A stretch of 32,000 bases of DNA from Candidatus Scalindua sp. (GCA_031316235.1 JALDRA010000001.1:2280001-2312000), one strand, 5' to 3'; positions 1 through 29,674 are shown, numbered from the stretch's first letter. A program made the numbers and translations. The notes: generated by a model not told the origin, from the letters alone.

Positions 1-216
1 CAGGAACTCCACGAGTCAGCTTAATTAAACCCGGATTCCCACTTAATCTGAGCAATTTCATTGTCTATCTTACCGTTTAACAATTGATAAAGTATCGAAA
101 AAAATAATTATGCTACCTGCCAAACTATCCGTCGGGCAAGAAGACTTGACAGCAATATATAAAAAATGGAGATACTATTCCATTAAATTATTTTGTTGCT
201 TTTCTCCCCCATATAC

Positions 217-296
217 TATACTAAAACCAGAAGCCTGGTTGCCGTTATCCCCGGACAAGGCGCCGAGGACTTTCCCCGCTCCGTTTTTTTCAGGAT
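217..296 (-). repeat. Modular hairpin repeat, truncated copy: H2-side terminus + G module + half of H1
   Basis: TATACTAAAACC terminus (preceded by an extra TATAC at 212-216), small hairpin AACCAG/CTGGTT, and G module TATCCCCGGACAAGGCGCCGAGGAC (246-270). Then 27 nt match the outer arm of H1 at 18/27. It abuts the next copy head to head. Confidence 0.75.
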
Positions 297-298
297 GT

Positions 299-411
299 TA
301 TACTCATCTCATACTGGATTTCGGATAAAATCCGAGAAAAAATTGAGCGAGCATACCTTCACCAAAATTTGGTTTCCGGTAAAAACGAAAACCATCATAA
401 GGATGCGTATA
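299..411 (+). repeat. Modular hairpin repeat, full copy (H1+H2), 113 bp
   Basis: TATACTCATCTCATACTGGATTTCGGATAAAATCCGAGAAAAAATTGAGCGAGCATACCTTCACCAAAATTTGGTTTCCGGTAAAAACGAAAACC...GCGTATA. Near-identical over H1 to the copies at 17332 and 28352. The right end is diverged. Confidence 0.9.
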
Positions 412-484
412 AAGAAGATTTTTTAGAGATAGAGGGTAAAGTGAGATGTAACGTAAAGAGATTTCATTTCTCAGGAGAGTATTC

Positions 485-2296
485 ATGACATTATTGAGTC
501 TGCAGGAAGTAAGCGTCAGTTTTGGTGGTCTGATTATCCTTGATCGGGTGAGTTTACAGATAGAGCGTGGTGAACGGGTCTGCCTCCTTGGGAGAAACGG
601 TGCAGGAAAGTCAACGTTACTGAAGCTGATCAACGGGGCGGTTCTACCGGATTCTGGAGAGGTTGTTCGGCAAAAAGGACTCCGCAGTGCCTATCTTTCA
701 CAGGAAATTCCTCGAGATGTACAGGGAACCGTATTTGACATTGTACTTGATGGCCTGAGAGGTCACGGCCAGGGCAATCCACACGATGAAATTGATCACG
801 ATTGGGAGATGCATCATCTGGTGGAAAAGGTGATTTCGCTGATACAGCTGAATGCAGATTCAGAATTCCAGACACTATCTTCCGGCCTGAAACGGAGGGT
901 ACTCCTTGCCCGGGGCCTGGTTTGTCAGCCTGAGATTTTACTTCTCGATGAGCCGACAAACCATCTGGATATTGCATCGATCGGCTGGTTGGAAGAGTTT
1001 CTCCTTCGCTATAAAGGGACAATTTTTTTTGTAACCCATGACCGTATGTTTTTACAAAAAACAGCCAATCGCATCATGGAACTTGATCGCGGCAAGCTTT
1101 CAGACTGGGAGTGTGACTATCAAACGTTTCTTTTACGGAAAGAGGCACTGCTTGATGCTGAGGAAAAGCAGCAGGCAGTTTTTGATAAGAAACTGGCACA
1201 GGAAGAGATATGGCTACGGCAGGGGATTAAGGCGCGACGCACACGAAACGAGGGACGGGTAAGGGCCCTTGAGAAAATGCGTGCAGTCCGGAGAGAACGA
1301 CGCATGGTAACAGGTACAGTGCGGATGAAAACCCATGAGGCTGAACGGTCAGGTGCAAAGATCATAGAGGTAAAGAACCTGGGTTACCGGTATGATGATA
1401 CCTCTGTTATCAAAGATTTTTCTACAACGATTATGAGGGGAGACAAAGTAGGCATTATCGGCCCGAATGGTTCGGGGAAGACCACACTCTTACGTCTTCT
1501 GCTCGGTGAATTGAGCCCCTGGAAGGGGACAGTACATCACGGTACACATATCCAGATTACCTATTTTGATCAGCTCCGTGAACAACTCAAAGAGGATAAG
1601 ACCGTCTATTACAATGTTGGTGAGGGGAGTGATTTTATTACCTTACAGGGTAAACAGAGGCATGTGATGAGTTATCTGCAGGATTTCCTCTTTTCACCCG
1701 ACCGTGCGCGTGTTTCTGCCAGTGTTCTTTCCGGTGGCGAGCGTAATCGTCTTCTCCTCGCCCGGCTCTTCACCAGGCCTTCAAACGTTCTCGTAATGGA
1801 TGAACCGACAAATGATCTCGATATTGAAACTCTGGAACTTCTGGAAGAATTGCTGGTGGATTACAAGGGAACACTCCTCCTGGTCAGTCACGATCGTGCC
1901 TTCCTCAACAATGTGGTGACCAGTACCATAGTGTTTGAAGGAGAAGGGCAATTGAATGAATATGTCGGAGGCTATGACGATTGGCTCCGACAGAGAAAGC
2001 TGGGCGAAAAAACCTCAAAGAAGTCTGTTAATGGTGAACCGGAACTGCCGGTGAAAAAACGTGACAGGCCGCGTAAGCTCAGCTTTAAAGAAAAACGTGA
2101 ACTCGAAATCCTGCCGGAGCGGATAGAGTCACTTGAAACTGAACAGGACCAGTTACATCAGACCATGAGCGACCCGCTGTTTTATCAGAAACAGAAAGAT
2201 GAGATCGTGGGCATAAAGACCCGGTTATCAATTGTGGATACAGAGTTGGCTGATGCGTATCAACGATGGGAAACATTGGAAAAGCTGCAGGATTAA
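485..2296 (+). CDS. uup: ABC-F family ATPase (Uup-like; tandem ABC cassettes, no TM domain, C-terminal coiled coil)
   Basis: 603-aa ORF with AGGAGA just upstream of the ATG. Two Walker A motifs (GRNGAGKST, GPNGSGKTT), two ABC signatures (LSSGLKRR, LSGGERNR) and two Walker B motifs (LLLDEPTNHLD, LVMDEPTNDLD). Charged inter-cassette linker and helical C-terminal tail typical of Uup. Confidence 0.92.
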   Translation: MTLLSLQEVSVSFGGLIILDRVSLQIERGERVCLLGRNGAGKSTLLKLINGAVLPDSGEVVRQKGLRSAYLSQEIPRDVQGTVFDIVLDGLRGHGQGNPHDEIDHDWEMHHLVEKVISLIQLNADSEFQTLSSGLKRRVLLARGLVCQPEILLLDEPTNHLDIASIGWLEEFLLRYKGTIFFVTHDRMFLQKTANRIMELDRGKLSDWECDYQTFLLRKEALLDAEEKQQAVFDKKLAQEEIWLRQGIKARRTRNEGRVRALEKMRAVRRERRMVTGTVRMKTHEAERSGAKIIEVKNLGYRYDDTSVIKDFSTTIMRGDKVGIIGPNGSGKTTLLRLLLGELSPWKGTVHHGTHIQITYFDQLREQLKEDKTVYYNVGEGSDFITLQGKQRHVMSYLQDFLFSPDRARVSASVLSGGERNRLLLARLFTRPSNVLVMDEPTNDLDIETLELLEELLVDYKGTLLLVSHDRAFLNNVVTSTIVFEGEGQLNEYVGGYDDWLRQRKLGEKTSKKSVNGEPELPVKKRDRPRKLSFKEKRELEILPERIESLETEQDQLHQTMSDPLFYQKQKDEIVGIKTRLSIVDTELADAYQRWETLEKLQD

Positions 2297-2463
2297 ACGG
2301 CAGTTTTTTAACCGCCATACTGTTTCTGGGAAAATGTCTTAAATACTTGAAATTAACTGAGGAATTTGCAAAACTATGTTGTGGTGATGAGTTAAGAATA
2401 TGCCGATAGGCGTTAACGCTAAAAAAATTGTGAGATTAACTTAATATAACTTGGAAAGGGATT

Positions 2464-4722
2464 ATGAAAAAAAATTGTCTATTTGTTTCCCATAGTAGTA
2501 AAGACGGTGACTGTGAAATGGCTCTTCGCAAGGGGCTGGAAAATCTTGGCCTGGAAATCCGTTTCGATTCATGTGATGGAGAACCCTCTAAGGAATTACA
2601 CCCTGAAACAAAACAGGAGATTGAGGAGGCCCGTGCATTTATTGTGGTGATTGGTACCGAGACGAAAAGTGCTGACCGTGTTGTGAAGGAGACCGCACAT
2701 GCCCTGGAGCAGATGAAAAAAGGTGATAATGATTACAAAGTGATTCCTCTTATACTGGAAGGTGTTGAACCTGAAGCCGTAACCACGGTTTTGGGGAAAG
2801 AACCCGTTGGAATGAAGATTCAAATTGGTTCCGGTGGTATTGATGAAGCGATACCGCAAATTCTGGCGGCACTGGGAGAACGACTATCAGAAGAGCAGAA
2901 ACAGTCTATCCTGGCCAGTATCGGAGCTCAGTTACGCCGTATCTCTCCGGAAATGAGAGAGAAAATGAAGCCGTTGGGCGTGTTTCAGGGGGGAGGGAGT
3001 ATTTCCAACATAACGTATGTTTTAAAATTAAACGAAGCGGAAAGGGATTTATTAGTTAAGGAATTATTGGAGATTGGTCTGGCTGAACCGATGCCGTATG
3101 GTTTCATACGCTTTCATCCAGCCCTTTGTCCTTACCTGTATCAGGAATTAGATCAGTCCATGCGCAACACATACCAGGCTCGGTGGGGCGAAAGTATGCG
3201 GCAATTGGTAGAGTTTCTGAATAAGAAACGGTCTGAAGACACGCATCTTGCGGATTCTTTGACACAACTCGAACAGATGAACCTCCTGCAGATGCTGCGA
3301 TATGTACAGGCACAGGATGTACCTGAGGTTACCATGGATCTGGCGGTAATGCTTGAAGAGCTCGTCGCACAGCTTGAAACACCAGGCATCCTGGCAAAAG
3401 TGACAGAAATTCGCAAAGAGGAGGAGAAGAAATCGGGCGAATGGGGTCATAACAGATTTGAAGTATTGAGGATACAGATTGAAAGATTGATGAGTATTGG
3501 AAGTCTGCCCAGGGCGTTAAGTGTTGCCCAGGTCCTCCTGGATAAGTGTGAACAGGCTGGTGAGAATTCTTATGCGGGAGCAGATTATGATCTGGCAGAG
3601 GCCCACATGCTCTTGGGCCGTGTATTAAGGGTGGGGGGTGCCGCTGAAGATGCGCTCAAATCAATTGATGAGGCACTCAGACGCTTTCAGCTGCTGGCAG
3701 ACAGGGGGGATAGTGATACTACGGTGAAGATGGTAGCCGCTTCACTTGCGAAAAGAGGTGAGTGTCTTTTTGACCTTGGGCGCTTCAAAGATGCTGCTGC
3801 CGCTTACGAAGGGAGTATACGGAAGGCTGGAGAGGTTAAAAGCGAGAGGCAGATTGCTCTTGCAAAAGGTCAGCTCGGAATGGTTCGTATGTCTCTGGGA
3901 CAATATGAGGAATCACTTAGGTCTCATGATGAGGCTCGAGAAATATTTGATAATCTTGGTGATCCCAACATGGTTGCCGTTGCCTGTCAACAGACGGGAG
4001 TGGTTCATGAGGAGATTGGCCAATTCGATGAAGCGGAGCAGGCATATCTTCAGGCACTGGCTATCAATGTAGAGCAGAAGAATACGATGGACGAGGCCAA
4101 GTGTCTTGGAAGTCTCGGAAGTTTCTACGCAAAGATTGGGAGGTCAGAAGATGCCGTGAATTATTTTCAAAGGGCAGCCGGTATATATCGAGAAATCAAC
4201 GATATGGCAAACGAGGGGCGTGTCCGCGGCAATCTTACTATCACCTTGATCATACTAAAGCGTTACGAAGAAGCCAGGCGTGAGATTCTGAGGGCTATTG
4301 AATGTTTCAAACCCTATGGTCATAATGTTGAACCCTGGAGGGCGTGGGACAAACTGCGCGAAATTGAACTGGCAGAGGGAAACCAGGAGGCCGCTTCCCG
4401 GGCACGGAAGCAGTCGGTCCAGGTATATCTTGCCTGCCGCCGTGACGGTGGAGAAGATCAGAATCCGAGCGCGAGGCTGTGTGTATTGTTTGAGGAAGCC
4501 TTGAAGAAACAGAAGCCGGAAGAGGTCCGAAAACAACTGGACGAAGTTGCCAACGACCCTAAAATACCTGTATCAGGGAAACTCCTGGTTTCAAAATTAC
4601 AGGAGATCCTGGCCGGTTCCCGTGAGAGAGAGCTGGCGGAGGATCTCGGACTCAATTATGCGGATGCAGCCGAAATTCTGTTTTTACTGGAAAGGCTGGA
4701 AAGAGTGAAAGTTGGTGTATAA
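2464..4722 (+). CDS. TIR domain - winged-helix-like linker - TPR repeat protein (no P-loop NTPase domain)
   Basis: 752-aa ORF with GGAAAGGG upstream of the ATG. N-terminal TIR-type motifs: LFVSHSSKD, ARAFIVVIG, SADRVVKETAHAL (Glu at the expected catalytic position), KVIPLIL. A STAND-like winged-helix-looking segment follows (LGVFQGGGS...LVKELLEIGLAEP...FIRFHPALCPYLYQEL). The C-terminal half has at least 6 TPR-like repeats of A/L/G/Y-rich 34-mers. No GxxxxGK[ST] motif anywhere. Confidence 0.8.
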   Translation: MKKNCLFVSHSSKDGDCEMALRKGLENLGLEIRFDSCDGEPSKELHPETKQEIEEARAFIVVIGTETKSADRVVKETAHALEQMKKGDNDYKVIPLILEGVEPEAVTTVLGKEPVGMKIQIGSGGIDEAIPQILAALGERLSEEQKQSILASIGAQLRRISPEMREKMKPLGVFQGGGSISNITYVLKLNEAERDLLVKELLEIGLAEPMPYGFIRFHPALCPYLYQELDQSMRNTYQARWGESMRQLVEFLNKKRSEDTHLADSLTQLEQMNLLQMLRYVQAQDVPEVTMDLAVMLEELVAQLETPGILAKVTEIRKEEEKKSGEWGHNRFEVLRIQIERLMSIGSLPRALSVAQVLLDKCEQAGENSYAGADYDLAEAHMLLGRVLRVGGAAEDALKSIDEALRRFQLLADRGDSDTTVKMVAASLAKRGECLFDLGRFKDAAAAYEGSIRKAGEVKSERQIALAKGQLGMVRMSLGQYEESLRSHDEAREIFDNLGDPNMVAVACQQTGVVHEEIGQFDEAEQAYLQALAINVEQKNTMDEAKCLGSLGSFYAKIGRSEDAVNYFQRAAGIYREINDMANEGRVRGNLTITLIILKRYEEARREILRAIECFKPYGHNVEPWRAWDKLREIELAEGNQEAASRARKQSVQVYLACRRDGGEDQNPSARLCVLFEEALKKQKPEEVRKQLDEVANDPKIPVSGKLLVSKLQEILAGSRERELAEDLGLNYADAAEILFLLERLERVKVGV

Positions 4723-4805
4723 AGACCCTGGTTTTTCTGAAGGGTCAAGATACAGAATTTCAATGCCGCTTTTTCATCAACACTTTGACTGAAGGAGTCG
4801 TATAT

Positions 4806-7175: not shown

Positions 7176-7207
7176 CACCGATAGGTTCCCCGTTTGTCAA
7201 ACCAATA

Positions 7208-7222
7208 TATACTAAAACCGAT
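7208..7222 (-). repeat. Solo H2-side terminus of the repeat family
   Basis: TATACTAAAACCGAT is an exact reverse complement of ATCGGTTTTAGTATA, which ends the copies at 17443 and 28464. Confidence 0.7.
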
Positions 7223-7245
7223 GATTCCAGAGAGAAAGGAACTCT

Positions 7246-7458
7246 ATGCTTTCCGATAAAGAGTATCTGTTGAAAATTGCGAAAACCCGTATGCCGTTTG
7301 GTAAATATAAAGATATGTTGCTGCTGGACCTGCCCGAGTGGTATATCGTATGGTATGCGAATAAGGGGTTTCCCGAAGGCGAGCTGGGTAACCTGCTCAA
7401 GTGTGTCTATGAAATCAAACTCAATGGACTCGAATACCTGTTTAAACCGCTCAGATAA
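7246..7458 (+). CDS. DUF3820-like small conserved protein (70 aa)
   Basis: AGAAAGGA upstream of the ATG. The sequence MPFGKYKDMLLLDLPEWYIVWYANKGFPEGELGNLL matches my memory of the DUF3820/QSregVF_b pattern (MPFGKYKG..L.DLP..Y..W....GFP.G.LG). Confidence 0.65.
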   Translation: MLSDKEYLLKIAKTRMPFGKYKDMLLLDLPEWYIVWYANKGFPEGELGNLLKCVYEIKLNGLEYLFKPLR

Positions 7459-7471
7459 TGTAACGATGGTG

Positions 7472-7487
7472 CAATAGGATGAGTATA
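7472..7487 (-). repeat. Solo H1-side terminus of the repeat family
   Basis: CAATAGGATGAGTATA(AC). The 12 nt GATGAGTATAAC (7478-7489) are an exact reverse complement of GTTATACTCATC, found at the starts of the copies at 299, 17332 and 29643. Compare CCAATATGAGATGAGTATAAC at 21342-21364. Confidence 0.6.
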
Positions 7488-7685
7488 ACTGGTTTTTTAT
7501 CCGGATTGGTGCTGAAGGATTCTTTCATGATCAGTTTTGCGGCAAATCAGAAAAAATAAATTTCTGAATTGATTTGCGTACGCAGAGTTATACAATAGGT
7601 ACGCTGTGTGTAATAAGTTCAATGAGCTTTGCCATGGAAAATAGTTTACAGTGACTTCCTGTCGTGAGAAAAAGGAGAAAAATAC

Positions 7686-8408
7686 ATGAAGGCAAAAAAA
7701 GGGAAAAAAACCGTGACCTCGCCGAAAAAATTTTCTATTTGTCCGGAATATCGAATTGCACATATCCTTGAAGAATCAGACGAAAAAGTTTCATCCTGGA
7801 GGATTTTAAAGATCGTTGGCGACTTTGTAAGTGGGTATGAGTTTTTAAAACGGTATGATCTTGCGGTAAGTATTTTTGGAAGCGCCCGCCGTGGATTCGA
7901 AGATGAAGTTTACCTGGAGGCACAAAAACTGGGAAATAAGCTGGCAAAGAAAGGGTTTGCTGTCATTACGGGAGGTGGCCCCGGCATCATGGAAGCCGCA
8001 AACAGAGGGGCACATGAGGCTCAAGGTAAATCTGTCGGTATTAATATCCAGTTGCCTGCAGAACAACATACAAATCCATTTGTAAAGGAATCAATTGCCG
8101 TTAACTATTTTTTTGTACGGAAATTGATGCTCTCTTTCGCATCCGAGGTGTATGTTTTTTTTCCTGGGGGGTTTGGAACCCTTGATGAGTTTTTTGAATT
8201 GATCACCCTGATTCAGACAAAAAAAAGCAAGCCCGTTCCCATCATCCTGGTGAACAGGGAGTATTGGTCACCACTTCTGGAGTGGATACAGAATAATGTC
8301 TATGAAAAGAACCATGCTATTGATGCGGAGGACATGGAAATTTATAATTTAGTGAACACCGCTGATGAGGCGTTTAAGTTGATTCAGAAACTGGTGAATA
8401 ATAAGTAG
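7686..8408 (+). CDS. LOG family protein (TIGR00730 Rossmann-fold nucleotide-binding; cytokinin riboside 5'-monophosphate phosphoribohydrolase-like)
   Basis: AAGGAG upstream of the ATG. Hallmark motifs GGGPGIMEAANRGA and PGGFGTLDEFFE. Confidence 0.9.
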   Translation: MKAKKGKKTVTSPKKFSICPEYRIAHILEESDEKVSSWRILKIVGDFVSGYEFLKRYDLAVSIFGSARRGFEDEVYLEAQKLGNKLAKKGFAVITGGGPGIMEAANRGAHEAQGKSVGINIQLPAEQHTNPFVKESIAVNYFFVRKLMLSFASEVYVFFPGGFGTLDEFFELITLIQTKKSKPVPIILVNREYWSPLLEWIQNNVYEKNHAIDAEDMEIYNLVNTADEAFKLIQKLVNNK

Positions 8409-8442
8409 CCGGTTGTGAACAACTGCTGCCTTGAGCAGGAGA

Positions 8443-8583
8443 TATACCTTCACCAAGATTTGATTTTCGGTTTTACCGGAAACCAAATCTTGGTGAAGGT
8501 ATCCCCGGACAAAAAGCGCCGAGTACCTTACTCGCTCAAATTTATCTCGGATTTTATCAGAAATCCAGTATGAGATGAGTATA
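8443..8583 (-). repeat. Modular hairpin repeat, expanded copy (H1 + G module + H2), 141 bp
   Basis: The reverse complement reads TATACTCATCTCATACTGGATTTCTGATAAAATCCGAGATAAATTTGAGCGAGTA-[AGGTACTCGGCGCTTTTTGTCCGGGG]-ATACCTTCACCAAGATTTGGTTTCCGGTAAAACCGAAAATCAAATCTTGGTGAAGGTATA. H2 forms perfect 19-bp arms (8444-8462 / 8484-8502). Confidence 0.92.
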
Positions 8584-8695
8584 ATCAGAAAATAATCCTG
8601 AGTAAACAATTGCATTTCCCCTCTGGTTTTCATAAGATTGCCTTGTCTCTGTATACAGAACTTTTTCGTGTTGTATTGTATCGGGAGGAGAAGCA

Positions 8696-11116
8696 GTGGC
8701 GTACATGAAAGCACTCAAACCGGAATCCTTATATCATTCCTGTGATCCGGACCAGTTTACCTTTGAGACAACAAACGATCTGGAGGATCTTCACGAAATA
8801 ATAGGACAGCCACGTGCTGTGGAAGCCGTGCAGTTCGGCTTAGGTATTGATCGGGAAGGATATAATATTTTTGCATTCGGACCTGCCGGTATTGGAAAAC
8901 ACACCTTTGTTCAGCAATTCCTGAAAAAAGAAGCTGCTTCCAGATCAACCCCTCCTGACTGGTGTTATGTGTGCAATTTTGAAGACCCGCAAAAACCCCG
9001 CGCATTGAGCCTGCCTCCAGGCAGGGGCATACAACTGAAAAAAGATATAGAACATTTGCTGGAAGAGTTACAGACAGTCATTCCCACCGCATTTCAAAGT
9101 GAGGAATACCGTACACGGAGGCAGGATATTGAGGATGAATTCAAGGAGAAGGAACAGCAGATAATTGAAAAACTTCAGCGCCGTGCAAAAGAAAAGGGTT
9201 TAAACGTCTTTCGCACCCCGGTTGGCGTGGCATTCGCACCATCACGAAACGGCAAGGTCCTGACTCCCGAAGAATTCCAGAAATTACCGGAAGAGGAACG
9301 ATTGCGCATAGAAAAGGAAGTGGATGCGCTCCAGAAGGAATCACAGGATATCTTTCAGCAGTTACCCCGCTGGGAAAACGAGATCCGAAACAAGCTGAGA
9401 GAGCTCAGCCGGGAAATTGCACGTTTTGTTGTCAGTAATCTCATCAATGAACTAAAGAAAACCTATGAAGATCTGGCTGAAGTTTTGCACTATCTGGAAG
9501 CTCTTCAGGAGGATATCATCGATAATATAAAGGATTTTCTTAAAAATGAGCCGTTTCAAAGAAGCCCGGAAGGTACAGCCGGTCAGCTTTCAAATGAAGC
9601 TCCATCATTGAGCGTTTATATGATAAATCTTCTGGTTGATCACAGTAACTCAAGCGGCGCATCGGTGGTGTATGAGGATCATCCCACCTACCAGAATCTG
9701 ATCGGAAGAGTGGAATATCTGTCAGAAATGGGAACCCTGCTTACCGATTTTTCCATGATAAAGGCTGGAGCACTTCACCGGGCCAATGGCGGATACCTTA
9801 TCCTCGATGCACAGAAAATATTGACGCAACCGTATGCCTGGGAAGGTCTGAAACGCGTATTAAGATCAAGACAGATCCGTATAGAATCACTGGGGCAGAT
9901 GTTCAGCCTGATCAGTACTGTCTCCCTTGAACCGGAACCAATACCCCTTACCATAAAAGTGGTTCTTGTTGGCAGCCCCATGCTCTATTATCTGCTCTGC
10001 AGATACGACCCTGAATTCAATAAACTGTTTAAGGTTGCGGCTGATTTTGATGATCAGATGAGCCGCAATCAGGAACATCAGCAGCTCTATGCCCGGCTCA
10101 TCGGAACTCTCGTCAGAAAGGAGGCACTGTGCCCTTTTGACCGGACTGCCGTTGCGCGGGTCATCGAACAAAGTTCCCGATTGAAAGGTGACAACGAAAA
10201 ACTCACGACCCGGTTTCAAAGTATCGCCGATCTGCTTCGCGAGTCAGACTACTATACAAAACAGAGCAATAAAGCTGTTGTCACTGCTGTTGAAGTACAA
10301 AAAGCAATTGATACCAGGCTGTACCGTTCCGGGAGATTGAGAGAACGACTTCATGAAGAAATAGTACGGAACACTATCCTGATTGATACCGGCGGGGAAA
10401 TGATTGGTCAGGTAAACGGGATTTCCGTGATACAACTGGGTGACTTTGCATTCGGAAGCCCCAGTCGTATCACGGCCAGAGTGCGCGTTGGCAAGGGTGA
10501 AGTAATTAATATTGAGCGGGAGGTGAAACTCAGCGGCCCGATCCATTCCAAGGGGGTATTGATCCTTTCAGGCTTCCTGGGAGGGAGGTATGCAAAAGAA
10601 CACCCGTTTTCCCTCACTGTGAGCCTGGTCTTTGAGCAGTCTTACGGTGGAGTGGAAGGAGACAGTGCATCATCTGCTGAACTGTATGTAATACTCTCTG
10701 CCATTGCAGACATCCCTCTCAAGCAGTCCCTTGCTGTCACGGGATCGGTAAACCAGCACGGACAGATACAGGCTATCGGCAGAGTAAACGAAAAGATCGA
10801 AGGTTTTTTTGATATCTGCAGGGCCAAAGGACTGAACGGGGAACAGGGTGTGCTTATACCAGGTTCCAATGTGAAACACCTCATGCTGAGAAGGGATGTC
10901 GTCGATGCCGTTACCGAGGGGCTGTTTCATATTTACCCTGTTGAAACCATTGATCAGGGGATAGAAATTCTTACCGGAATACCTGCCGGCACACCTGATA
11001 CTTCGGGAAAGTATCCTGAGGGAACGGTAAACGGTCTGGTTAAAACAGAACTTGAAGAACTGGCAGAAAAACGATCGGTTTTTCTTGCCTCCGAAGAAGA
11101 AAAGAAGAATAGATGA
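8696..11116 (+). CDS. Lon-like (LonC-type) protease: degenerate AAA-like domain with helical insertion plus S16 Lon protease domain
   Basis: 806-aa ORF. GGGAGGAG at 8683-8690; the start is GTG 8696 or ATG 8705. P-loop-like GPAGIGKHT (His at the S/T position) and Walker-B-like GGYLILDAQ (no acidic residue after the Asp). Long charged helical insert (aa ~130-290). Lon protease Ser motif GVEGDSASSAE and downstream Lys (IGRVNEKIEGFF). Confidence 0.9.
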   Translation: MAYMKALKPESLYHSCDPDQFTFETTNDLEDLHEIIGQPRAVEAVQFGLGIDREGYNIFAFGPAGIGKHTFVQQFLKKEAASRSTPPDWCYVCNFEDPQKPRALSLPPGRGIQLKKDIEHLLEELQTVIPTAFQSEEYRTRRQDIEDEFKEKEQQIIEKLQRRAKEKGLNVFRTPVGVAFAPSRNGKVLTPEEFQKLPEEERLRIEKEVDALQKESQDIFQQLPRWENEIRNKLRELSREIARFVVSNLINELKKTYEDLAEVLHYLEALQEDIIDNIKDFLKNEPFQRSPEGTAGQLSNEAPSLSVYMINLLVDHSNSSGASVVYEDHPTYQNLIGRVEYLSEMGTLLTDFSMIKAGALHRANGGYLILDAQKILTQPYAWEGLKRVLRSRQIRIESLGQMFSLISTVSLEPEPIPLTIKVVLVGSPMLYYLLCRYDPEFNKLFKVAADFDDQMSRNQEHQQLYARLIGTLVRKEALCPFDRTAVARVIEQSSRLKGDNEKLTTRFQSIADLLRESDYYTKQSNKAVVTAVEVQKAIDTRLYRSGRLRERLHEEIVRNTILIDTGGEMIGQVNGISVIQLGDFAFGSPSRITARVRVGKGEVINIEREVKLSGPIHSKGVLILSGFLGGRYAKEHPFSLTVSLVFEQSYGGVEGDSASSAELYVILSAIADIPLKQSLAVTGSVNQHGQIQAIGRVNEKIEGFFDICRAKGLNGEQGVLIPGSNVKHLMLRRDVVDAVTEGLFHIYPVETIDQGIEILTGIPAGTPDTSGKYPEGTVNGLVKTELEELAEKRSVFLASEEEKKNR

Positions 11117-11961: not shown

Positions 11962-11992
11962 GAAAACATTTCAGGAAGAATAAAGAAATGCC

Positions 11993-13057: not shown

Positions 13058-13086
13058 AAGAAAAAGTATCTGTGAATAGTTACTAA

Positions 13087-14740: not shown

Positions 14741-16171
14741 TTAAGAACGCAGAATATTCATCCCTCTTCTGCAGATCTCTTTGGCATATTCAGTCCATAT
14801 GCCACTTCCCCAGTATCTGTAGCAGCTTGTTTGTGAAACCAGTAAATGCAACAGTGCTTCTCTGTATGGAGTTTCATTCATATCAATATCCGGTCTGTCA
14901 AATCGCCTGTGAAATTCACCACTCAATGTATTGATAGGATCAAGGACATCACCATAGCCTTCAACCCAGCTGATATCGTTTGTCCAGGACGCTTTATCCA
15001 GGGCAAAGTTGGAATCATTCTCCCTGATTTTATTGATAGCCTTATCAGCGGCACCGGGGCAGAACTCATCCATACATTCCCAGATCCTGTGCTGTGATAT
15101 CGGCTGAAGGGGCAGAAAATCGTTATCACTCAAACCTGTCCCCCTTACAAACTCCAGGTATTCAGACCCATTCATTGCTACCACACCTTCAGTTCCCAGT
15201 TCGTGGCAGGTTTTTTTATATGCGTCAGGAAACTCATTCATCATAACTCCGCCATTTTCCCCATCTCCTATCTGGAGGACATAGGGAATAACCGCTTTTC
15301 CGCAGTATTCTTCCCGTCTTTTTGTCTGCGCTTCATAATAAGGCTGCATCTGCGCAACCAGTTTAGTATCAGAACCCTGAGTCTTTATAAGAACGGTGAT
15401 CTCCTGAGTTTCTCCCCGTGAATTCTTCGCCACAAGCATGTGAGGTACATACGGTCTCTTAAGGCTGCTGCCATCCATATTCTCTACCGTATGCTCCTGA
15501 ACCATGAGCCATTCATATCCGCACTCTCTTAATGCCTTTACATACTCATAACAGACATCCGGATGAACCGGAAGATTCATCTCGGGAGCAGAAAAACCTT
15601 TTACCCTGCCAAGCGCCTCAAGGCCGAAAATTGAAGCAAAATGTTCCTGCCATGCCCTGATATGCAGCTTGATATCCGGTATTGGAGTAGAAGAAACTAC
15701 CGCGTGAGACCACATGGTTCCCAGCCACTCTGCGTTCATATGATAGGTTTTATCGGTAGTTACCAGCTTGAGATTTTCCAATACATATTCTTTTCCCATC
15801 TGTTTCAGACCCCATAGAAGGTTTCCTGAGTAATCAAGCATGACACGGGGAGTTTTACCCTGATCACATAACTCCCTGATAAGATCAGATATCCGGGAGT
15901 AACACCACAGAAAAACAGGGGCATTATGGTTATCTCCCCTATGCTGGTTTTCCATCATAAACTGGAGGTTGGAAATCAGATCGGCTGAAGAGATGTCGTC
16001 ACGGGAACCGGGTATCGTCGGCTGGTGCATATGAAGTGCGATCCCGAAGGAAGATTGTACCTTATCAATATTCAAATCTGAGAGCGACACATAAAGATCA
16101 TCTCTTCTGGCGGAAGTTACCCGCTTTATCTTATCTTCGTTACCGCATATCGGGGGAAAATCTTTAATCAT
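14741..16171 (-). CDS. Glycoside hydrolase family 57 protein
   Basis: 476 aa with AAAGGAG upstream. GH57 conserved regions: HMHQP (region I), SAPEMN (nucleophile-Glu region) and GDGENGG (acid/base Asp region). Confidence 0.9.
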   Translation of the reverse strand: MIKDFPPICGNEDKIKRVTSARRDDLYVSLSDLNIDKVQSSFGIALHMHQPTIPGSRDDISSADLISNLQFMMENQHRGDNHNAPVFLWCYSRISDLIRELCDQGKTPRVMLDYSGNLLWGLKQMGKEYVLENLKLVTTDKTYHMNAEWLGTMWSHAVVSSTPIPDIKLHIRAWQEHFASIFGLEALGRVKGFSAPEMNLPVHPDVCYEYVKALRECGYEWLMVQEHTVENMDGSSLKRPYVPHMLVAKNSRGETQEITVLIKTQGSDTKLVAQMQPYYEAQTKRREEYCGKAVIPYVLQIGDGENGGVMMNEFPDAYKKTCHELGTEGVVAMNGSEYLEFVRGTGLSDNDFLPLQPISQHRIWECMDEFCPGAADKAINKIRENDSNFALDKASWTNDISWVEGYGDVLDPINTLSGEFHRRFDRPDIDMNETPYREALLHLLVSQTSCYRYWGSGIWTEYAKEICRRGMNILRS

Positions 16172-16236
16172 CGGGAGGTGCTCCTTTAAGAGGTAAAATA
16201 GTAACTTACAGACTCCTGGAAATCGCCCGGCAGATG

Positions 16237-16383
16237 TATACTCAAACCGATTTGGTTTCAGGTTTTTCTAAAAACTAAATCCTGGTTAATGGTATCCCCG
16301 GACAGATAGCGCCGAGGGCCTTACTCACCTGTGTTTTTCCCGGATTTTGTCCGAAAGCCTTTATAAGATAAAAATATTATATA
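16237..16383 (-). repeat. Modular hairpin repeat, degenerate expanded copy
   Basis: Starts TATACTCAAACCGAT. Contains the G module GGTATCCCCGGACAGATAGCGCCGAGGGCCTTACTC (16291-16326), then a decayed H1 (CCCGGATTTTGTCCGAAAG...TTATATA). Confidence 0.7.
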
Positions 16384-16396
16384 CGAAGATGAGAAG

Positions 16397-17264: not shown

Positions 17265-17331
17265 AATTGTTTCCGTTCTGCAAAGTTCCGATTTATCTGT
17301 TCCCTGCTGAAGACTTTCGAATACGATATGT

Positions 17332-17443
17332 TATACTCATCTCATACTGGATTTCGGATAAAATCCGAGATAAAATTGAGCGAGTATACCTTCACCAAGA
17401 TCTGGTTTCCGGTAAAACCGAAAACCAGATCGGTTTTAGTATA
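17332..17443 (+). repeat. Modular hairpin repeat, full copy (H1+H2), 112 bp; best reference copy
   Basis: TATACTCATCTCATACTGGATTTCGGATAAAATCCGAGATAAAATTGAGCGAGTATACCTTCACCAAGATCTGGTTTCCGGTAAAACCGAAAACCAGATCGGTTTTAGTATA. H1 and H2 each fold as an imperfect hairpin. Termini are TATACT/AGTATA. Confidence 0.93.
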
Positions 17444-17488
17444 AACACTCCTTCGGATCATTGATTATTCTGAGAAGGATTTGGGAAA

Positions 17489-20741: not shown

Positions 20742-20850
20742 TTTGCGAATCTGCGGAAGGTATCGAAAGAGTTAAAGGCCCTGGAAGAGGCTATGCAGGA
20801 AACCGATGAAGCGATTGCGGATTTATTGTAGGCAGTTCGGGATTTATCAC

Positions 20851-20888
20851 TCACCGTAGAGACGCGATGAATCGCGTCTCTACGGTGA
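20851..20888. terminator. 38-bp perfect palindrome / strong stem-loop (possible bidirectional terminator)
   Basis: TCACCGTAGAGACGCGAT-GA-ATCGCGTCTCTACGGTGA, with 18-nt perfectly complementary arms. Lies 110 nt downstream of the SLC13 permease stop. No flanking U-tract, so intrinsic-terminator function is uncertain. Confidence 0.4.
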
Positions 20889-21279
20889 TCATCCGTTGGT
20901 ATTCAGAAACCTTTCAATCATATGTTCTTTTCTATGGCATATTGAGCTAATAATGGTATAATTTCCGTCTGGAACAGACAAGATTCGATTGGGAGGAGAG
21001 ACTGAAAAAACAGAGAATTTATTTTTTTTGAAAGAAGCCGGGGAACATTATACATCATGCCAGGCACAGTTTGTACACTTCCTGGTCTTTATGCAGCAAA
21101 ACATACAATGCCTCTGGCAAGGCGTTCAAACCGACTCCTTTATTTCCGGAGCTGCCCAAGAGAAGCGTGACCCACATTCATGTGCTTCCTGAAGTTTTCA
21201 GGCTTTGTGTACCGGCGAAGGTTTTACGTCAATTCTGCGTACCGCATAACCTCCGCACACAACGGTTCATATATACAAA

Positions 21280-21362
21280 TATACAAAAACCGATTTAGTT
21301 GCAGTTATACTCGCTCAATTTTATCTCGGATTTTATCCGAAAACCAATATGAGATGAGTATA
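21280..21362 (-). repeat. Modular hairpin repeat, short variant lacking the H2 hairpin core, 83 bp
   Basis: TATACAAAAACCGATTTAGTTGCAGT + TATACTCGCTCAATTTTATCTCGGATTTTATCCGAAAACCAATATGAGATGAGTATA. H1 is intact. H2 is reduced to its two flanks. Confidence 0.88.
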
Positions 21363-21416
21363 ACCTTTTTATTACACTCATTGTAGACCGCCCGCAGGGC
21401 ACTAATCTGGTTTGTC

Positions 21417-22997
21417 ATGAAGAAAATTGAAAAAGATACTATAAAAAAACTGTTAGAACAGAGATTTGGCATTCTGGTTCCAGATAACATCTCATTGCAA
21501 CGGATGAGCGAAAGGAAGAAAAAGGAGTGGCTGGAGAGGGGGGATCGTGTGACGTATCTCCAGCCGCAAGACTTTTTAACAACAAGGGAAGCAGAGAAAC
21601 CTTTTATTTTAAATCCTGACATTATTCAATTAGTTACCGACACGATCCGGCAGGAGGAATTGAGGATCTACTTCGGGATGCTGAGTTATCATGGACGGGG
21701 AAATGCATCCCTGCATACCGGACTTAATGTATTTGACTCCCTTGAGCCCTACCGGGAGAAGTGGGGGCTCATGTTCTTCCTGGGCTATCAGGGTAATCGG
21801 GAAACATCCCTCTGCAAGAAATTAAAGGAGAAGGGAATAACTATTTATTTTAATGACCAGGTGCAGCTTGAAGACAGGGACGGAAACATTCTCGTTGCTT
21901 ACAATGAGACCGGAAAAGCGGCAAACTGTATTAAATCTGTCAAGATGATCCAGGGCGAGGCAAACAAACAGCGGCTGAACCCAAGGAAGACGTTTGTAGT
22001 CTTTGTGGATGACGATTACGTCATGCAGGATTCCCTGACCTATCTTATGATGATGATATCATGGGTTTTAAGTTTTGTGTCGCCTCAAATAACGAAAGAA
22101 AAGGGATTACAGAAGCTGATTGAGAACTGCCAGAAGGTAGGGTTCGTGAAGAATGGGAGCTCACGGCTCCAGTTCTCACGCCAGGTTACGCGTGAGATTA
22201 CCTATGGAGAAAAACCCGTAATGAGCTATAGGGATTTTCTCATAGAACTTCTCAAGCGTGAGATACGAGAACACGGAGAGCGTTTCGAACGTGAAGAAAA
22301 AAAGAGCGCGGTCGAAAGGATGATAAAGGAGTTAGCTCAGATGAAGGCAGCTATCCGGCACCTGGATAAAGTGCCGTCTGATGTGATCATGACGCCGGAC
22401 AACTTTTCTTCCGTCCTTTCTACATTTGAAAAGAAAACGCAGAAAAGCTGCAAAATGATAAGGGAACTGCTGCAGAGAAAAGTGAGATTAGGAGGCAGAG
22501 TGACGAGTTTACTGACCACTCTTTTTCTCCGTCATTCAGAAGAGACCCTCCATTTGTGGCTCAGTGAGTTTACGTACATGCTCAACGGGGATCAGGGGAT
22601 GTCGCTCTATAACTGGCTGCACATGTTAATTGGACGGGGGTATGCCCTGGAGATATCACTCCTGGTAAAGGTGCTTCTCGACAGGCAGTTTCAGGATTAC
22701 AAGGTTATTAACATTATTTCAAATCCCCATATCCATCAATCACAACAGGATATGAACGTAGACCGGATGCGGGATACTATCCTCTCTTCATTGGATCTTT
22801 TTCGACTGTTATACGGAGAAATCAAGACAGGTGATTTTCTCCAGCGTTACGATATGAGTTATACCAGCCGGAGACGGATAATCAGACACCCTGACGGCAG
22901 GGTCAGTTTCGATGATCAATTACTTCAGCTGGAAAAAGACCACCTTGTCCCGCCTTTGAAAGAGCTGTTGCTGGTTGAGAAACCGATCAATGCATGA
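21417..22997 (+). CDS. Atypical GT-A protein related to glucosyl-/mannosyl-3-phosphoglycerate synthases, with N-terminal extension and ~100-aa charged insertion
   Basis: 526-aa ORF ending 6 nt before pyk. Motifs aligned from memory to GpgS/MpgS: VVFVDDDYV (DxD), GGRVTSLLTTLFL, GDQGM, GYALEISLLVKVL, NPHIHQSQ. Inserted helical segment REIREHGERFEREEKKSAVERMIKELAQMKAAIRHL. That it is a gene is well supported; the function is tentative. Confidence 0.6.
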   Translation: MKKIEKDTIKKLLEQRFGILVPDNISLQRMSERKKKEWLERGDRVTYLQPQDFLTTREAEKPFILNPDIIQLVTDTIRQEELRIYFGMLSYHGRGNASLHTGLNVFDSLEPYREKWGLMFFLGYQGNRETSLCKKLKEKGITIYFNDQVQLEDRDGNILVAYNETGKAANCIKSVKMIQGEANKQRLNPRKTFVVFVDDDYVMQDSLTYLMMMISWVLSFVSPQITKEKGLQKLIENCQKVGFVKNGSSRLQFSRQVTREITYGEKPVMSYRDFLIELLKREIREHGERFEREEKKSAVERMIKELAQMKAAIRHLDKVPSDVIMTPDNFSSVLSTFEKKTQKSCKMIRELLQRKVRLGGRVTSLLTTLFLRHSEETLHLWLSEFTYMLNGDQGMSLYNWLHMLIGRGYALEISLLVKVLLDRQFQDYKVINIISNPHIHQSQQDMNVDRMRDTILSSLDLFRLLYGEIKTGDFLQRYDMSYTSRRRIIRHPDGRVSFDDQLLQLEKDHLVPPLKELLLVEKPINA

Positions 22998-23003
22998 TAC
23001 CCT

Positions 23004-24425: not shown

Positions 24426-24500
24426 GAAATAATGGTTGAATATTACAGTTTTCTTCTGATTATGTTTTATATGACAATTTCGGCAAAATAAAATATCTTT

Positions 24501-28172: not shown

Positions 28173-28300
28173 TCAGTGGTCGAGCGAAAACCGCCTTACT
28201 CTTCTTCGGTGCTGCAATAATTTCGTAATTCCCCGTAGTGCGTCTCTTGAATCAGGGAGGCCATAGGTCAACTGCAGGGTTACCGTTCAAGTACTGGTTA

Positions 28301-28328
28301 TTGACAAAACGGCATATTTTTGTATGGT
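28301..28328 (+). promoter_or_regulatory. Candidate sigma70-like promoter upstream of the repeat copy and pfk
   Basis: TTGACA (28301-28306), 16-nt spacer, TATGGT (28323-28328). A transcript from here would carry the 28352-28464 repeat in the pfk 5' UTR. The consensus is assumed from E. coli-type promoters. Confidence 0.25.
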
Positions 28329-28351
28329 TTTCTGATAAAGCTGAGGTTTCA

Positions 28352-28464
28352 TATACTCATCTCATACTGGATTTCGGATCAAATCCGAGATAAAATTGAG
28401 CGAGTATACCAGCAACCAAGATTTGATTTCCGGTAAAACTGAAAACCAAATCGGTTTTAGTATA
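28352..28464 (+). repeat. Modular hairpin repeat, full copy (H1+H2), 113 bp
   Basis: TATACTCATCTCATACTGGATTTCGGATCAAATCCGAGATAAAATTGAGCGAGTATACCAGCAACCAAGATTTGATTTCCGGTAAAACTGAAAACCAAATCGGTTTTAGTATA. Confidence 0.93.
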
Positions 28465-28544
28465 TCAAGCAACAGCTGCTTTTGTACCAAGCAAATGTAT
28501 ACAGTATACGGTCTGAAATAATAAATTACAGAGGGAGGGGAAGC

Positions 28545-29633
28545 GTGAGTAAAAGAATTGCAATACTTACAGGCGGTGGTGACTGCCCGGGGATAAATGC
28601 TGTAATACGGGCCATCACTAAGAAGGCCATACTTGAATATGATATGAATATCATTGGTATTGAAGATGGTTTTGAAGGCCTTGTTCTTAATAAACAGAGA
28701 AAACTTACCTATGAAGACGTATCGGGCATTCTTACCCTGGGAGGAACAATACTGGGGACGTCAAACAGAGCCAACCCTTATAAATATCCAGTTAAGAATA
28801 ACGGAAAAACTGAATGGAAAGATCTGTCAACGAAGGTCCTTCAAAACTTCAAAAAACTTGATGCGGATTGCCTGATTTGTGTGGGAGGAGATGGCACATT
28901 ACGCATTGCTCAACGTTTGTTTGAAGAGGGTGTGCCTGTGGTCGGGGTTCCCAAAACAATAGATAATGATATCCAGGGAACAGATATTACATTTGGTTTT
29001 GATTCCGCTGTTCGAATTGCTGCGGAAGGAATTGACAGGGTTCATACCACTGCTCAATCTCATCATAGAGTTATGATCGTTGAGGTTATGGGAAGAAGTG
29101 CAGGCTGGATTGCCCTGTATTCGGGAGTTGCAGGCGGAGGCGATATTATCCTGATTCCCGAAATACCCTTCGATATAAATATAGTTGCAGAAAAAGTAAG
29201 AGCGAGAAACAAAAAGGGTAAGAGATTCAGCATTGTAATTGTAGCCGAAGGCGCAAGACCTGAGGGAGAAGAGGTTGTAGTGCAGAAGATCGAAAAAGAT
29301 GGTTCAGAGGCCGTTCGACTTGGCGGAATAGGTTTTGTTCTCGGAGAGAGGCTGAGAAAACTTACCAATATTGAAACACGCACGGTTGTTATGGGTCATC
29401 TTCAACGAGGGGGCCCACCTACCTCATTTGACAGAATACTGGGCACACAGTTAGGTGTAACAGCTGTCGATTTGATAGAAAATGAAGATTTCGGTTTTAT
29501 GGTGGGCGTAACAGGGAATGATTTCGTTAGGGTACCGCTGGAAACAGTTTCAAAAGGTGCCAGGCAAGTACCTTCTGATCATATGCTGATAAAGTCAGCT
29601 CGTTCAATAGGTACCTGTTTTGGAGATATATAA
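28545..29633 (+). CDS. pfkA: 6-phosphofructokinase (PfkA family; phosphoryl donor not assignable)
   Basis: The ORF track starts at TTG 28482. GTG 28545 is preceded by GAGGGAGGGG and gives VSKRIAILTGGGDCPGINAVIRA, the canonical PFK N-terminus. Motifs GGDGT, PKTIDND, MGR and GHLQRGG. Confidence 0.92.
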   Translation: MSKRIAILTGGGDCPGINAVIRAITKKAILEYDMNIIGIEDGFEGLVLNKQRKLTYEDVSGILTLGGTILGTSNRANPYKYPVKNNGKTEWKDLSTKVLQNFKKLDADCLICVGGDGTLRIAQRLFEEGVPVVGVPKTIDNDIQGTDITFGFDSAVRIAAEGIDRVHTTAQSHHRVMIVEVMGRSAGWIALYSGVAGGGDIILIPEIPFDINIVAEKVRARNKKGKRFSIVIVAEGARPEGEEVVVQKIEKDGSEAVRLGGIGFVLGERLRKLTNIETRTVVMGHLQRGGPPTSFDRILGTQLGVTAVDLIENEDFGFMVGVTGNDFVRVPLETVSKGARQVPSDHMLIKSARSIGTCFGDI

Positions 29634-29642
29634 GTTAGGTGT

Positions 29643-29674
29643 TATACTCATCTTATAATTGTTTTCGATCGGAT
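29643..29674 (+). repeat. Partial, decayed H1 fragment of the repeat family
   Basis: TATACTCATCTTATAATTGTTTTCGATCGGAT compared with H1 TATACTCATCTCATACTGGATTTCGGAT. Begins 9 nt after the pfk stop codon. Confidence 0.5.

What the first reader, a model, noticed from the sequence alone, without database searches (positions are those of the whole stretch)
212..29674. Dense, apparently undescribed family of modular hairpin repeats (TATACT...AGTATA) at eight or more intergenic sites
Ten segments at eight loci share one architecture. The segments start at 217, 299, 7208, 7472, 8443, 16237, 17332, 21280, 28352 and 29643.
- Module H1 (~57 nt): TATACTCATCTCATACTGGATTTCGGATAAAATCCGAGATAAAATTGAGCGAGTATA. 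It forms an imperfect hairpin with an outer stem TATACTC/GAGTATA and an inner stem ATTTCGGAT/ATCCGAGAT.
- Module H2 (~55 nt): CCTTCACCAAGATCTGGTTTCCGGTAAAACCGAAAACCAGATCGGTTTTAGTATA. It forms a nested hairpin.
- Both orientations occur, and every copy is intergenic.
- H2 stem changes are paired. GATCTGG...CCAGATC in copy 17332 becomes GATTTG(A/G)...C(C/T)AAATC in copies 28352 and 8443, so C:G changes to T:A and complementarity is kept.
- The H1 inner stem has a T opposite G. That is a G-U wobble only if the H1-to-H2 strand is transcribed.

Eight loci in 32 kb is a very high density. The size, terminal inverted repeat and internal structure fit a MITE or a REP/BIME-like element. Conserved pairing also allows a structured RNA or a protein-binding module. 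I do not recognise it as a named family.
Basis: seen in the sequence. Interest (0 to 1): 0.75.

Follow-up and report, generated by a model that had tools for sequence, protein, structure and literature searches.

The report
New TA-inserting MITE family in Scalindua
The repeats are real: they are copies of a small non-coding mobile DNA element (a MITE) that has spread through the spaces between genes of a marine anammox bacterium, which makes them a new example of a well-known kind of selfish DNA and not a new kind of RNA or regulatory system.

Summary
The window comes from a Candidatus Scalindua MAG. It holds seven substantial copies and three short remnants of one repeat family, all of them between genes.

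The family has two forms, both counted with their flanking TAs:
- a short form of 112 nt (H1 + H2)

Every complete copy is bounded TA|TACT…AGTA|TA.

The decisive result is one filled/empty pair. In Scalindua sp. AMX11 a copy sits inside a remnant of the GH57 gene. The window's intact GH57 gene has the uninterrupted sequence with a single TA there (15543-15544). The element therefore inserts and duplicates TA.

Other support:
- A sister element in another relative has near-perfect 26-nt terminal inverted repeats that share the same end box.
- Copy density differs greatly between related genomes.
- Copies from different genomes are as alike as copies within one genome (about 91%), while orthologous genes are only about 76% identical.

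Evidence against the RNA reading:
- Covariation is not significant.
- Both strands fold equally well.
- Rfam has no match.

Verdict: this is a new MITE family, probably moved in trans by an IS630/Tc1-mariner-type transposase. That transposase is inferred and was not found. It is a new member of a known kind, of modest interest.

The parts
212..298 (-). Old, degenerate long-form copy. It keeps the H2 terminus TATACTAAAACC, has lost the H2 hairpin, keeps module M at about 245-275, and its H1 is eroded. It abuts the next copy.
   Evidence: Direct-repeat family D6. Weak covariance-model hit at 210-357(-), E 0.013. Sequence read.
299..413 (+). Short-form copy (H1 + H2) with an eroded right end, upstream of the ABC-F gene (485-2296).
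   Evidence: nhmmer E 7e-33; 109 bits.
7208..7222 (-). Remnant: 15 of 15 nt of the H2-side terminus (TATACTAAAACCGAT). It lies within a stretch of about 60 nt between the cytochrome gene and the DUF3820 gene that relative L016 lacks.
7477..7487 (-). Remnant: the H1-side terminus (GGATGAGTATA), just downstream of the DUF3820 gene (7246-7458).
   Evidence: Family D9.
8443..8583 (-). Long-form copy (H1 + M + H2). Its outer H2 arm has been replaced, so that H2 forms a 28-nt-arm palindrome that is 93% complementary.
   Evidence: (I12).
16237..16376 (-). Long-form copy and the most diverged one (about 72% identical to the canonical copy). It lies upstream of the GH57 gene and in the same orientation.
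17332..17443 (+). Canonical short-form copy: TA|TACT…AGTA|TA, with H1 at 17332-17388 and H2 at 17389-17443. It ends 45 nt upstream of the MFS gene.
   Evidence: 144 bits.
21280..21362 (-). Copy with intact H1 and an internal deletion of the H2 hairpin. Relative L007 has an approximately empty site here.
28352..28464 (+). Short-form copy upstream of the phosphofructokinase gene.
29643..29670 (+). Truncated 5' end of H1. It begins exactly where similarity to relative L007 stops; L007 carries 2.1 kb more at this point.
   Evidence: (D4).
15543..15544 (.). Empty target site: a single TA inside the intact GH57 gene. At the homologous position in Scalindua sp. AMX11 a 108-nt element lies between two TAs.

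Best explanation
These are copies of a non-autonomous DNA transposon, a MITE. The mobile core is 108 nt in the short form and about 136 nt in the long form.

Shown:
- The element has no coding capacity.
- Each end carries the same box: terminal TAC, then …TGGTTTTCGG at about positions 16-26.
- It inserts at a TA dinucleotide and duplicates that TA.

Inferred:
- A DDE transposase of the IS630/Tc1-mariner type, encoded elsewhere, binds the two ends. It cuts the element out and pastes it into TA sites.
- Insertions inside genes are removed by selection, so the surviving copies pile up between genes.
- The H1, M and H2 hairpins are features of the element's own sequence: inverted-repeat ends plus internal palindromes.
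- The paired changes are better explained as rare events or hairpin-templated DNA correction than as selection for an RNA fold.
- Any effect on neighbouring genes, such as hairpins in 5' UTRs, would be a by-product.
For: 1. Filled against empty site. AMX11 locus L009 54-212 and 320-378 match window 15700-15487 at 87-88% identity. The window reads …TATGAG-TA-TGTAAAGG…. AMX11 reads …TATGAG-TA-[TACTCATC…GGTTTTAGTA]-TA-TGTAAAGG….
2. Twelve copies from five genomes, eleven full or near-full plus the composite 7208-7487, are bounded TA|…|TA. Their flanks are otherwise unrelated.
3. The ends are inverted: TATACT/AGTATA, with 17 of 27 matches overall; 4 of 2000 shuffles score as well.
4. A sister element at L016 2358-2539 has 24 of 26 matching terminal repeats with the same box and TA flanks. 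A 44-nt internally deleted version of it is in AMX11.
5. Distribution is patchy:
   - 7 copies plus remnants in 32 kb of the window
   - 3 in 21 kb of AMX11
   - 1 in 43 kb of the closest relative (L007 + L013)
   - 1 in 20 kb of L016
   - 1 in 8 kb of SCAELEC01
   - 0 in 21 kb of S. japonica
   - 0 in 21 kb of MAG L012
6. Copies from different genomes are as alike as copies within one genome: about 91% against 83-90%. Orthologous genes of the window and AMX11 are 75-76% identical.
7. Short-read contigs of the source sample break inside copies at five contig ends, as expected for a multi-copy repeat.
8. IS630/Tc1-mariner elements insert almost exclusively at TA and duplicate it (PMC2170065). 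The TA-flanked bacterial MITEs RUP, Correia and ERIC are precedents (PMC2229807, PMC3184786).
Against: - No transposase gene with matching ends was found. The only IS seen, at L013 15731-17031, has unrelated ends.
- There is only one clean filled/empty pair. A second, window 21280 against L007, is approximate.
- A 2-bp duplication cannot formally be told apart from an element that carries TA at one end.
- The inverted repeats of the main family are weak, at 63% identity.
- The two hairpin cores are at least as similar in direct orientation, including the TAAAA loop. That is not the classic MITE picture.
- Some IS5-family groups also make 2-4-bp duplications (my own knowledge), so the choice of transposase family is not secure.
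Confidence: 0.85

Rival explanations
1. It is a MITE, but a different transposase family moves it. One option is a palindrome-associated element (PATE) moved as single-stranded DNA by an IS200/IS605-type Y1 transposase that recognises the subterminal hairpins H1 and H2. Another option is a member of an IS5-family subgroup that makes 2-4-bp duplications.
For: - H1 and H2 are subterminal hairpins on the same strand.
- Their cores are similar in direct orientation, including the loop: TGGATTTCGGATAAAATCCGA against TGG-TTTCCGGTAAAA-CCGA. 55 of 2000 shuffles reach this score; for the inverted orientation 261 of 2000 do.
- Both fold stably as single-stranded DNA.
- A TA at the left flank plus a TA at the element's right end would look like a TA duplication.
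Against: - Left flanks share nothing beyond TA. IS200/IS605 elements insert 3' of a conserved tetra- or pentanucleotide and have no inverted ends (my own knowledge).
- The extreme ends are inverted: TATACT/AGTATA.
- The sister element has a 24 of 26 terminal inverted repeat. This is the signature of a DDE transposon.
Confidence: 0.08
2. The repeats are, or have become, functional structured RNA modules. Examples would be 5'-UTR hairpins that control mRNA stability or translation, or small RNAs. On this view the conserved pairing reflects selection on the RNA fold.
For: - The fold is very stable: -41 kcal/mol, z = -6.9.
- By my count, about 8 of roughly 12 copies point H1 then H2 towards the start of the downstream gene and end 13-85 nt before it.
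- Sequence conservation between genomes is high.
- Four base pairs show changes on both sides.
Against: - Copies occur in both orientations relative to neighbouring genes, between convergent genes, and inside a gene remnant.
- The opposite strand folds as well or better: -46.1 kcal/mol.
- Covariation is not above control: 28 of 500 shuffles for pairs, 67 of 500 for the score.
- Each double change is in a single sequence.
- Rfam gives no hit above noise.
- Insertion with a target duplication shows that the copies arose by transposition.
Confidence: 0.05
3. It is a REP/BIME-type repeat spread by a RAYT (REP-associated tyrosine transposase).
For: The architecture is modular and made of hairpins. 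The repeats are intergenic and occur in both orientations.
Against: - Units are 112-140 nt, not 20-40 nt.
- The hairpins have no GTAG or CGTC head (PMC3733652 gives these as the marks of the large REP superfamilies).
- A TA target duplication and inverted ends are present.
- The stems are AT-rich, not GC-rich.
Confidence: 0.02

Closest known systems
Correia / NEMIS elements of Neisseria
   Same: - TA-flanked MITEs of about 100-155 bp.
- Two size classes that differ by an internal segment, 107 and 155 bp (PMC2229807). Here the two classes are 112 and about 140 nt and differ by module M.
- Mostly intergenic, many copies, long stem-loops when transcribed.
- Location established by comparing filled and empty sites.
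   Different: - No sequence similarity.
- Correia elements have about 24-bp good terminal repeats, an IHF site and documented promoters. Here the repeats are weaker and no promoter-like or terminator-like site was flagged inside the two copies scanned.
- The host is a planctomycete (anammox bacterium).
RUP of Streptococcus pneumoniae with IS630-Spn1
   Same: - 107-bp non-coding MITE.
- Short terminal repeats.
- Insertion at TA dinucleotides.
- High similarity among copies (PMC2229807).
   Different: RUP has an identified parent IS with matching ends. No parent was found here. There is no sequence similarity.
ERIC/IRU elements of enterobacteria; Nezha of cyanobacteria
   Same: - Imperfect palindromes of about 127-170 bp with terminal repeats, target duplications and 5'-TA-3' at both ends (ERIC).
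- Mobility inferred from empty and filled orthologous sites in related species (Nezha) (PMC3184786).
   Different: Unrelated sequence and host. The elements here carry two to three separate internal hairpins, and individual copies have gained further hairpin inserts (AMX11 20804-20836; SCAELEC01 L002 951-978).
IS630 / Tc1-mariner transposons (e.g. ISY100)
   Same: The target is TA and it is duplicated. About 24-30 bp at each end is enough for transposition (PMC2170065). The shared end box here is about 26 nt.
   Different: Those are autonomous elements that encode a transposase. The copies here encode nothing. Membership of this superfamily is inferred from the duplication alone.

Membership tests
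MITE (miniature inverted-repeat transposable element) | Small (under about 200-400 bp) and without a transposase gene | tested here: met
   112-159 nt including the flanking TAs. No ORF of 80 aa or more lies within a copy, apart from spurious ORFs that overlap one.
MITE (miniature inverted-repeat transposable element) | Terminal inverted repeats | tested here: met
   TATACT/AGTATA plus an imperfect 17 of 27 repeat; 4 of 2000 shuffles score as well. The sister element has 24 of 26. The repeats are weak in the main family.
MITE (miniature inverted-repeat transposable element) | Target-site duplication flanking the copy | tested here: met
   TA on both sides of all 12 copies examined. The empty site has a single TA.
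MITE (miniature inverted-repeat transposable element) | Insertion polymorphism (filled and empty orthologous sites) | tested here: met
   AMX11 filled against window empty at 15543-15544. Window 21280 filled against L007 approximately empty.
MITE (miniature inverted-repeat transposable element) | A partner autonomous IS with the same ends that supplies the transposase | not testable with these tools
About 190 kb of fetched loci hold no transposase with matching ends.
IS630/Tc1-mariner-derived MITE | Insertion at TA with a 2-bp TA duplication | tested here: met
   The family property is taken from PMC2170065.
IS630/Tc1-mariner-derived MITE | Ends similar to those of an IS630-family IS | not tested
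   ISfinder is not available. No candidate IS is in hand.
REP/BIME | GC-rich palindromic units of 20-40 nt with a conserved GTAG or CGTC head and no target duplication | tested here: not met
   Units are 112-140 nt, the stems are AT-rich, and there is a TA duplication. The criteria are from PMC3733652.
IS200/IS605-derived PATE | No inverted ends and no duplication; insertion 3' of a conserved 4-5-nt target; subterminal hairpins | tested here: inconclusive
   Subterminal hairpins are present and are similar in direct orientation. However, the flanks share only TA and the ends are inverted.
Any Rfam RNA family | Match at or above the family's gathering score | tested here: not met
   No hits at gathering score over the whole window. 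Below threshold, only generic miRNA-hairpin noise.

The most novel reading that the evidence does not exclude
The family may not be merely selfish. Copies from Scalindua lineages whose orthologous genes are only about 76% identical are themselves about 91% identical. This is hard to explain by vertical descent. It would fit either recent horizontal spread of the element and its transposase among co-occurring marine anammox lineages, or host-level selection on the whole 110-nt sequence. Such selection could act on an orientation-dependent 5'-UTR hairpin or on a protein-binding module that the host has co-opted to control neighbouring genes.
Probability: 0.12. Interest if true: 0.55.

Novelty: new member of a known kind. 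Interest (0 to 1): 0.3.

Why it matters
Mobile elements are rarely described in anammox bacteria (PMC13597103 says so for transposases and IS elements). I found no paper that links Scalindua with MITEs.

A dense MITE family has practical consequences:
- It breaks short-read assemblies. Five contig ends of the source sample fall inside copies.
- It marks points of rearrangement. Similarity to relatives stops exactly at copies 8583 and 29643.
- It gives a cheap strain and lineage marker for Scalindua populations.
- It puts strong hairpins 13-85 nt upstream of several start codons, where they could alter expression.

It does not open a new category of biology.

Tried and rejected
1. Known RNA family. 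Rfam gave no hit at gathering score over the whole window, and below-threshold scans of two copies gave only generic miRNA-like hairpin noise.
2. Genome-collection scan with a strict 24-nt H1 pattern. It gave one hit, Scalindua sp. SCAELEC01.
3. Metagenome scan with a 19-nt pattern. It gave two hits. One lies inside a response-regulator gene and the other has no further similarity, so both are chance matches.
4. Viral contigs: none. Plasmid and phage collections: none.
5. Walking along the source genome was impossible. Look-ups of the NCBI protein versions failed, and only short Logan contigs were returned.
6. Mobile cassette carrying the 70-aa DUF3820 gene (7208…7487). Rejected, because the gene is conserved and single-copy. 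In relative L016 it abuts the cytochrome gene with no element ends.
7. Module M as an independent small repeat. Rejected, because it occurs only inside copies.
8. Parent IS. The IS4/IS5-like element in L013 has unrelated ends.
9. Promoter or terminator function. No consensus site fell inside the two copies scanned.
10. Strand assignment from wobble pairs. Rejected.
11. JGI relatives L014 and L015 were not syntenic at the filled sites.


Full report

Yes. The H1 57-mer recurs four times within 3 mismatches, and no shuffle gave any match. Repeat finding, an nhmmer profile and a covariance model all recover the same set:
- strong copies at 297-413(+), 8441-8585(-), 16235-16378(-), 17330-17445(+), 21278-21364(-) and 28350-28466(+)
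- a degenerate copy at 210-298(-)
- terminal fragments at 7208-7222, 7477-7487 and 29643-29670

The H2 55-mer as written matches only at 17389, because the other H2 copies are diverged or deleted.

It is itself a small hairpin. It sits between H1 and H2 in the copies at 8443 and 16237 and in the degenerate copy at 212. The family therefore has a short form of 112 nt and a long form of about 140 nt.

All window copies lie between genes with Pfam support. By my count they make up about 0.85 kb of roughly 4.0 kb of intergenic DNA.

**2. Where does the window come from?**

The pyruvate kinase and the LonC-like protease are 100% identical to proteins of an NCBI MAG named Candidatus Scalindua sp., on a 4.15-Mb contig. 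Scalindua is a marine anammox planctomycete.

Short-read contigs of the same organism (Logan SRR28338161) end inside copies at five contig ends. One of those contigs shows a further copy about 1.3 kb beyond the right end of the window.

**3. What is it?**

The key result came from Ca. Scalindua sp. AMX11, whose pyruvate kinase is 79% identical. Its locus L009 carries three copies in 21 kb.

The first of these lies inside a decayed remnant of the GH57 gene. L009 54-212 and 320-378 match window 15700-15487 at 87-88% identity. The alignment reads:
- window: …TATGAG-TA-TGTAAAGG…
- AMX11: …TATGAG-TA-[TACTCATC … GGTTTTAGTA]-TA-TGTAAAGG…

A 108-nt element has therefore been inserted at a TA, and that TA is now present on both sides. 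The window holds the empty site, at 15543-15544.

Twelve copies from five genomes (eleven full or near-full plus the composite 7208-7487) show the same TA|TACT…AGTA|TA boundaries, with otherwise unrelated flanks. A second comparison, window 21280 against relative L007, is consistent with an empty site in L007, but indels blur it.

**4. The ends.**

The extreme ends are inverted: TATACT and AGTATA. Over 27 nt the two ends match at 17 positions, and 4 of 2000 shuffles score as well.

A sister element in another relative makes the picture clearer (L016 2358-2539, assembly ERZ25072999):
- It is 182 nt long and TA-flanked.
- Its terminal repeats match at 24 of 26 positions: TATACCCATCACAAATTGGTTTTCGG against TATACCCATTACAAAATGGTTTTCGG.
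- The H1 end of our family matches this box at 21-23 of 26 positions. By my count, the H2 end shares TATAC plus TTGGTTTTCGG.
- A 44-nt internally deleted sister copy lies in AMX11 at L009 11435-11478.

At least two related non-coding families thus share one end box. This is what is expected if one transposase serves both.

**5. Distribution.**

| Genome / locus | Copies | DNA examined |
|---|---|---|
| Window | 7 + remnants | 32 kb |
| AMX11 | 3 | 21 kb |
| SCAELEC01 | 1 | 8 kb |
| ERZ25072999 (L016) | 1 | 20 kb |
| Closest relative ERZ25039603 (L007 + L013; PK 87%, LonC 91% identical) | 1 | 43 kb |
| S. japonica (L011) | 0 | 21 kb |
| MAG L012 | 0 | 21 kb |
| L014 | 0 | 13 kb |

Copies do not group by genome. 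Copy 17332 is 91% identical both to an AMX11 copy and to the L013 copy, and 83-90% identical to its neighbours in the window. The orthologous PK, GT2 and PFK genes of the window and AMX11 are only 75-76% identical. This fits recent activity from a conserved master sequence, possibly with horizontal spread. I cannot tell these two apart.

**6. The RNA arguments.**

- The canonical copy folds strongly as RNA on the H1-to-H2 strand: -41.2 kcal/mol, z = -6.9. The opposite strand does at least as well: -46.1 kcal/mol, z = -6.6.
- H1 has a T·G on the plus strand. H2 has a C·A there, which is a G·U on the minus strand. The wobble argument therefore cancels out.
- On ten copies from four genomes, 4 of 37 pairs show a change on both sides, each in one sequence. 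28 of 500 shuffles reach that count, and 67 of 500 reach the covariation score. Given the tool's stated false-positive behaviour for related sequences, this is not evidence for a selected fold.
- In copy 8443 the whole outer arm of H2 has been rewritten to complement the inner arm (I12). This looks like hairpin-templated DNA correction, a route to paired changes that needs no RNA. That is my inference.
- Orientation is mixed. By my count, about 8 of roughly 12 copies point towards the next start codon. Others are antisense to it, lie between convergent genes, or sit in a gene remnant.
- Rfam gives nothing.

**7. The segments around 7208-7487.**

The two end fragments flank a 70-aa DUF3820/QSregVF_b gene. 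I tested whether this is a mobile cassette. It is not.
- The gene is a conserved single-copy gene in Scalindua and many other bacteria.
- In relative L016 it directly abuts the same cytochrome gene, and no element ends are present.

The fragments are remnants of old insertions. How they came to bracket the gene is not resolved.

**8. Mechanism.**

Shown:
- a non-coding element with inverted ends
- insertion at TA with duplication
- insertion polymorphism
- a strong bias to intergenic DNA

Inferred:
- Mobilisation in trans by a DDE transposase of the IS630/Tc1-mariner type. The basis is that these elements insert almost exclusively at TA and duplicate it, and that about 24-30 bp of each end suffices (PMC2170065).
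- Purifying selection against insertions in genes.

No partner transposase was found. The one IS seen, at L013 15731-17031 (DDE_Tnp_1), has unrelated ends. The hairpin cores are as similar in direct as in inverted orientation. For that reason I keep a single-strand (IS200/IS605-like) mechanism as a minor rival.

**9. Comparison and novelty.**

The closest analogues are:
- Correia/NEMIS, which also has two size classes that differ by an internal segment
- RUP, with IS630-Spn1 as its proposed partner
- ERIC and Nezha

All are TA-associated bacterial MITEs that fold into long hairpins (PMC2229807, PMC3184786). There is no sequence relationship to any of them, so this is not a member of those named families. 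It meets the general MITE definition on every feature I could test.

No paper in the library links Scalindua with MITEs. A 2026 paper notes that transposases and IS elements are rarely described in anammox bacteria (PMC13597103).

**Verdict.**

This is a real and well-described repeat family. It is a new MITE family, which is a new member of a known kind. Interest is modest at 0.3. It matters mainly for Scalindua genome assembly, strain typing and rearrangement, with a small chance of co-opted regulatory roles or horizontal spread.

Noticed in passing
L016 2358-2539; L009 11435-11478: A sister MITE family: 182 nt, TA-flanked, with 24 of 26 matching terminal repeats (TATACCCATCACAAATTGGTTTTCGG). 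AMX11 holds a 44-nt internally deleted copy. It shares the end box of the family under study but has a different interior. It is absent from the window.
   Followed up: partly
window 8585-8599 and 29643: Similarity between the window and its closest relatives stops exactly at the edges of element copies. Upstream of LonC, L013 has a different gene. After the phosphofructokinase gene, L007 has 2.1 kb and two genes that the window lacks. Copies therefore coincide with rearrangement or deletion junctions.
   Followed up: partly
L009 1-440 (Scalindua sp. AMX11): A decayed remnant of the GH57 gene that is intact in the window (14741-16171). It has two internal deletions of about 350 and 470 nt as well as the MITE insertion.
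   Followed up: partly
window 8696-11116: Within Scalindua, the LonC-like protease has close homologues only in the source genome and its nearest relatives (91-92%). The next best hits, at 64-67%, include several from Chloroflexota (Anaerolineae, Caldilineae). AMX11 and S. japonica do not appear among the listed hits. This suggests horizontal acquisition.
   Followed up: no
L013 15731-17031: An IS of 1301 bp with perfect 18-bp terminal repeats (GGTTAGGTTTTTGCGTAA). Its transposase, called as two ORFs, carries DDE_Tnp_1. It sits next to the citrate synthase gene in the closest relative and is unrelated to the MITE ends.
   Followed up: partly
window 20852-20887: A perfect 17-bp GC-rich palindrome (CACCGTAGAGACGCGAT-GA-ATCGCGTCTCTACGGTG), 110 nt downstream of the CitMHS transporter gene. 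No T-run follows it. It is not part of the MITE family.
   Followed up: no
L009 20804-20836; L002 951-978: Individual MITE copies have gained extra GC-rich hairpins: 33 nt inside the H1 loop in AMX11, and 28 nt after module M in SCAELEC01. Neither insert recurs elsewhere in the DNA fetched.
   Followed up: partly
window 21417-22997: A 526-aa protein with no Pfam match. It is conserved at the same position (upstream of the pyruvate kinase region) in the closest relative, L007.
   Followed up: no
window 2464-4722: A 752-aa protein with an N-terminal TIR domain and a long TPR array. Relative L016 has it next to the same multihaem cytochrome gene. It may be a signalling or defence protein.
   Followed up: no
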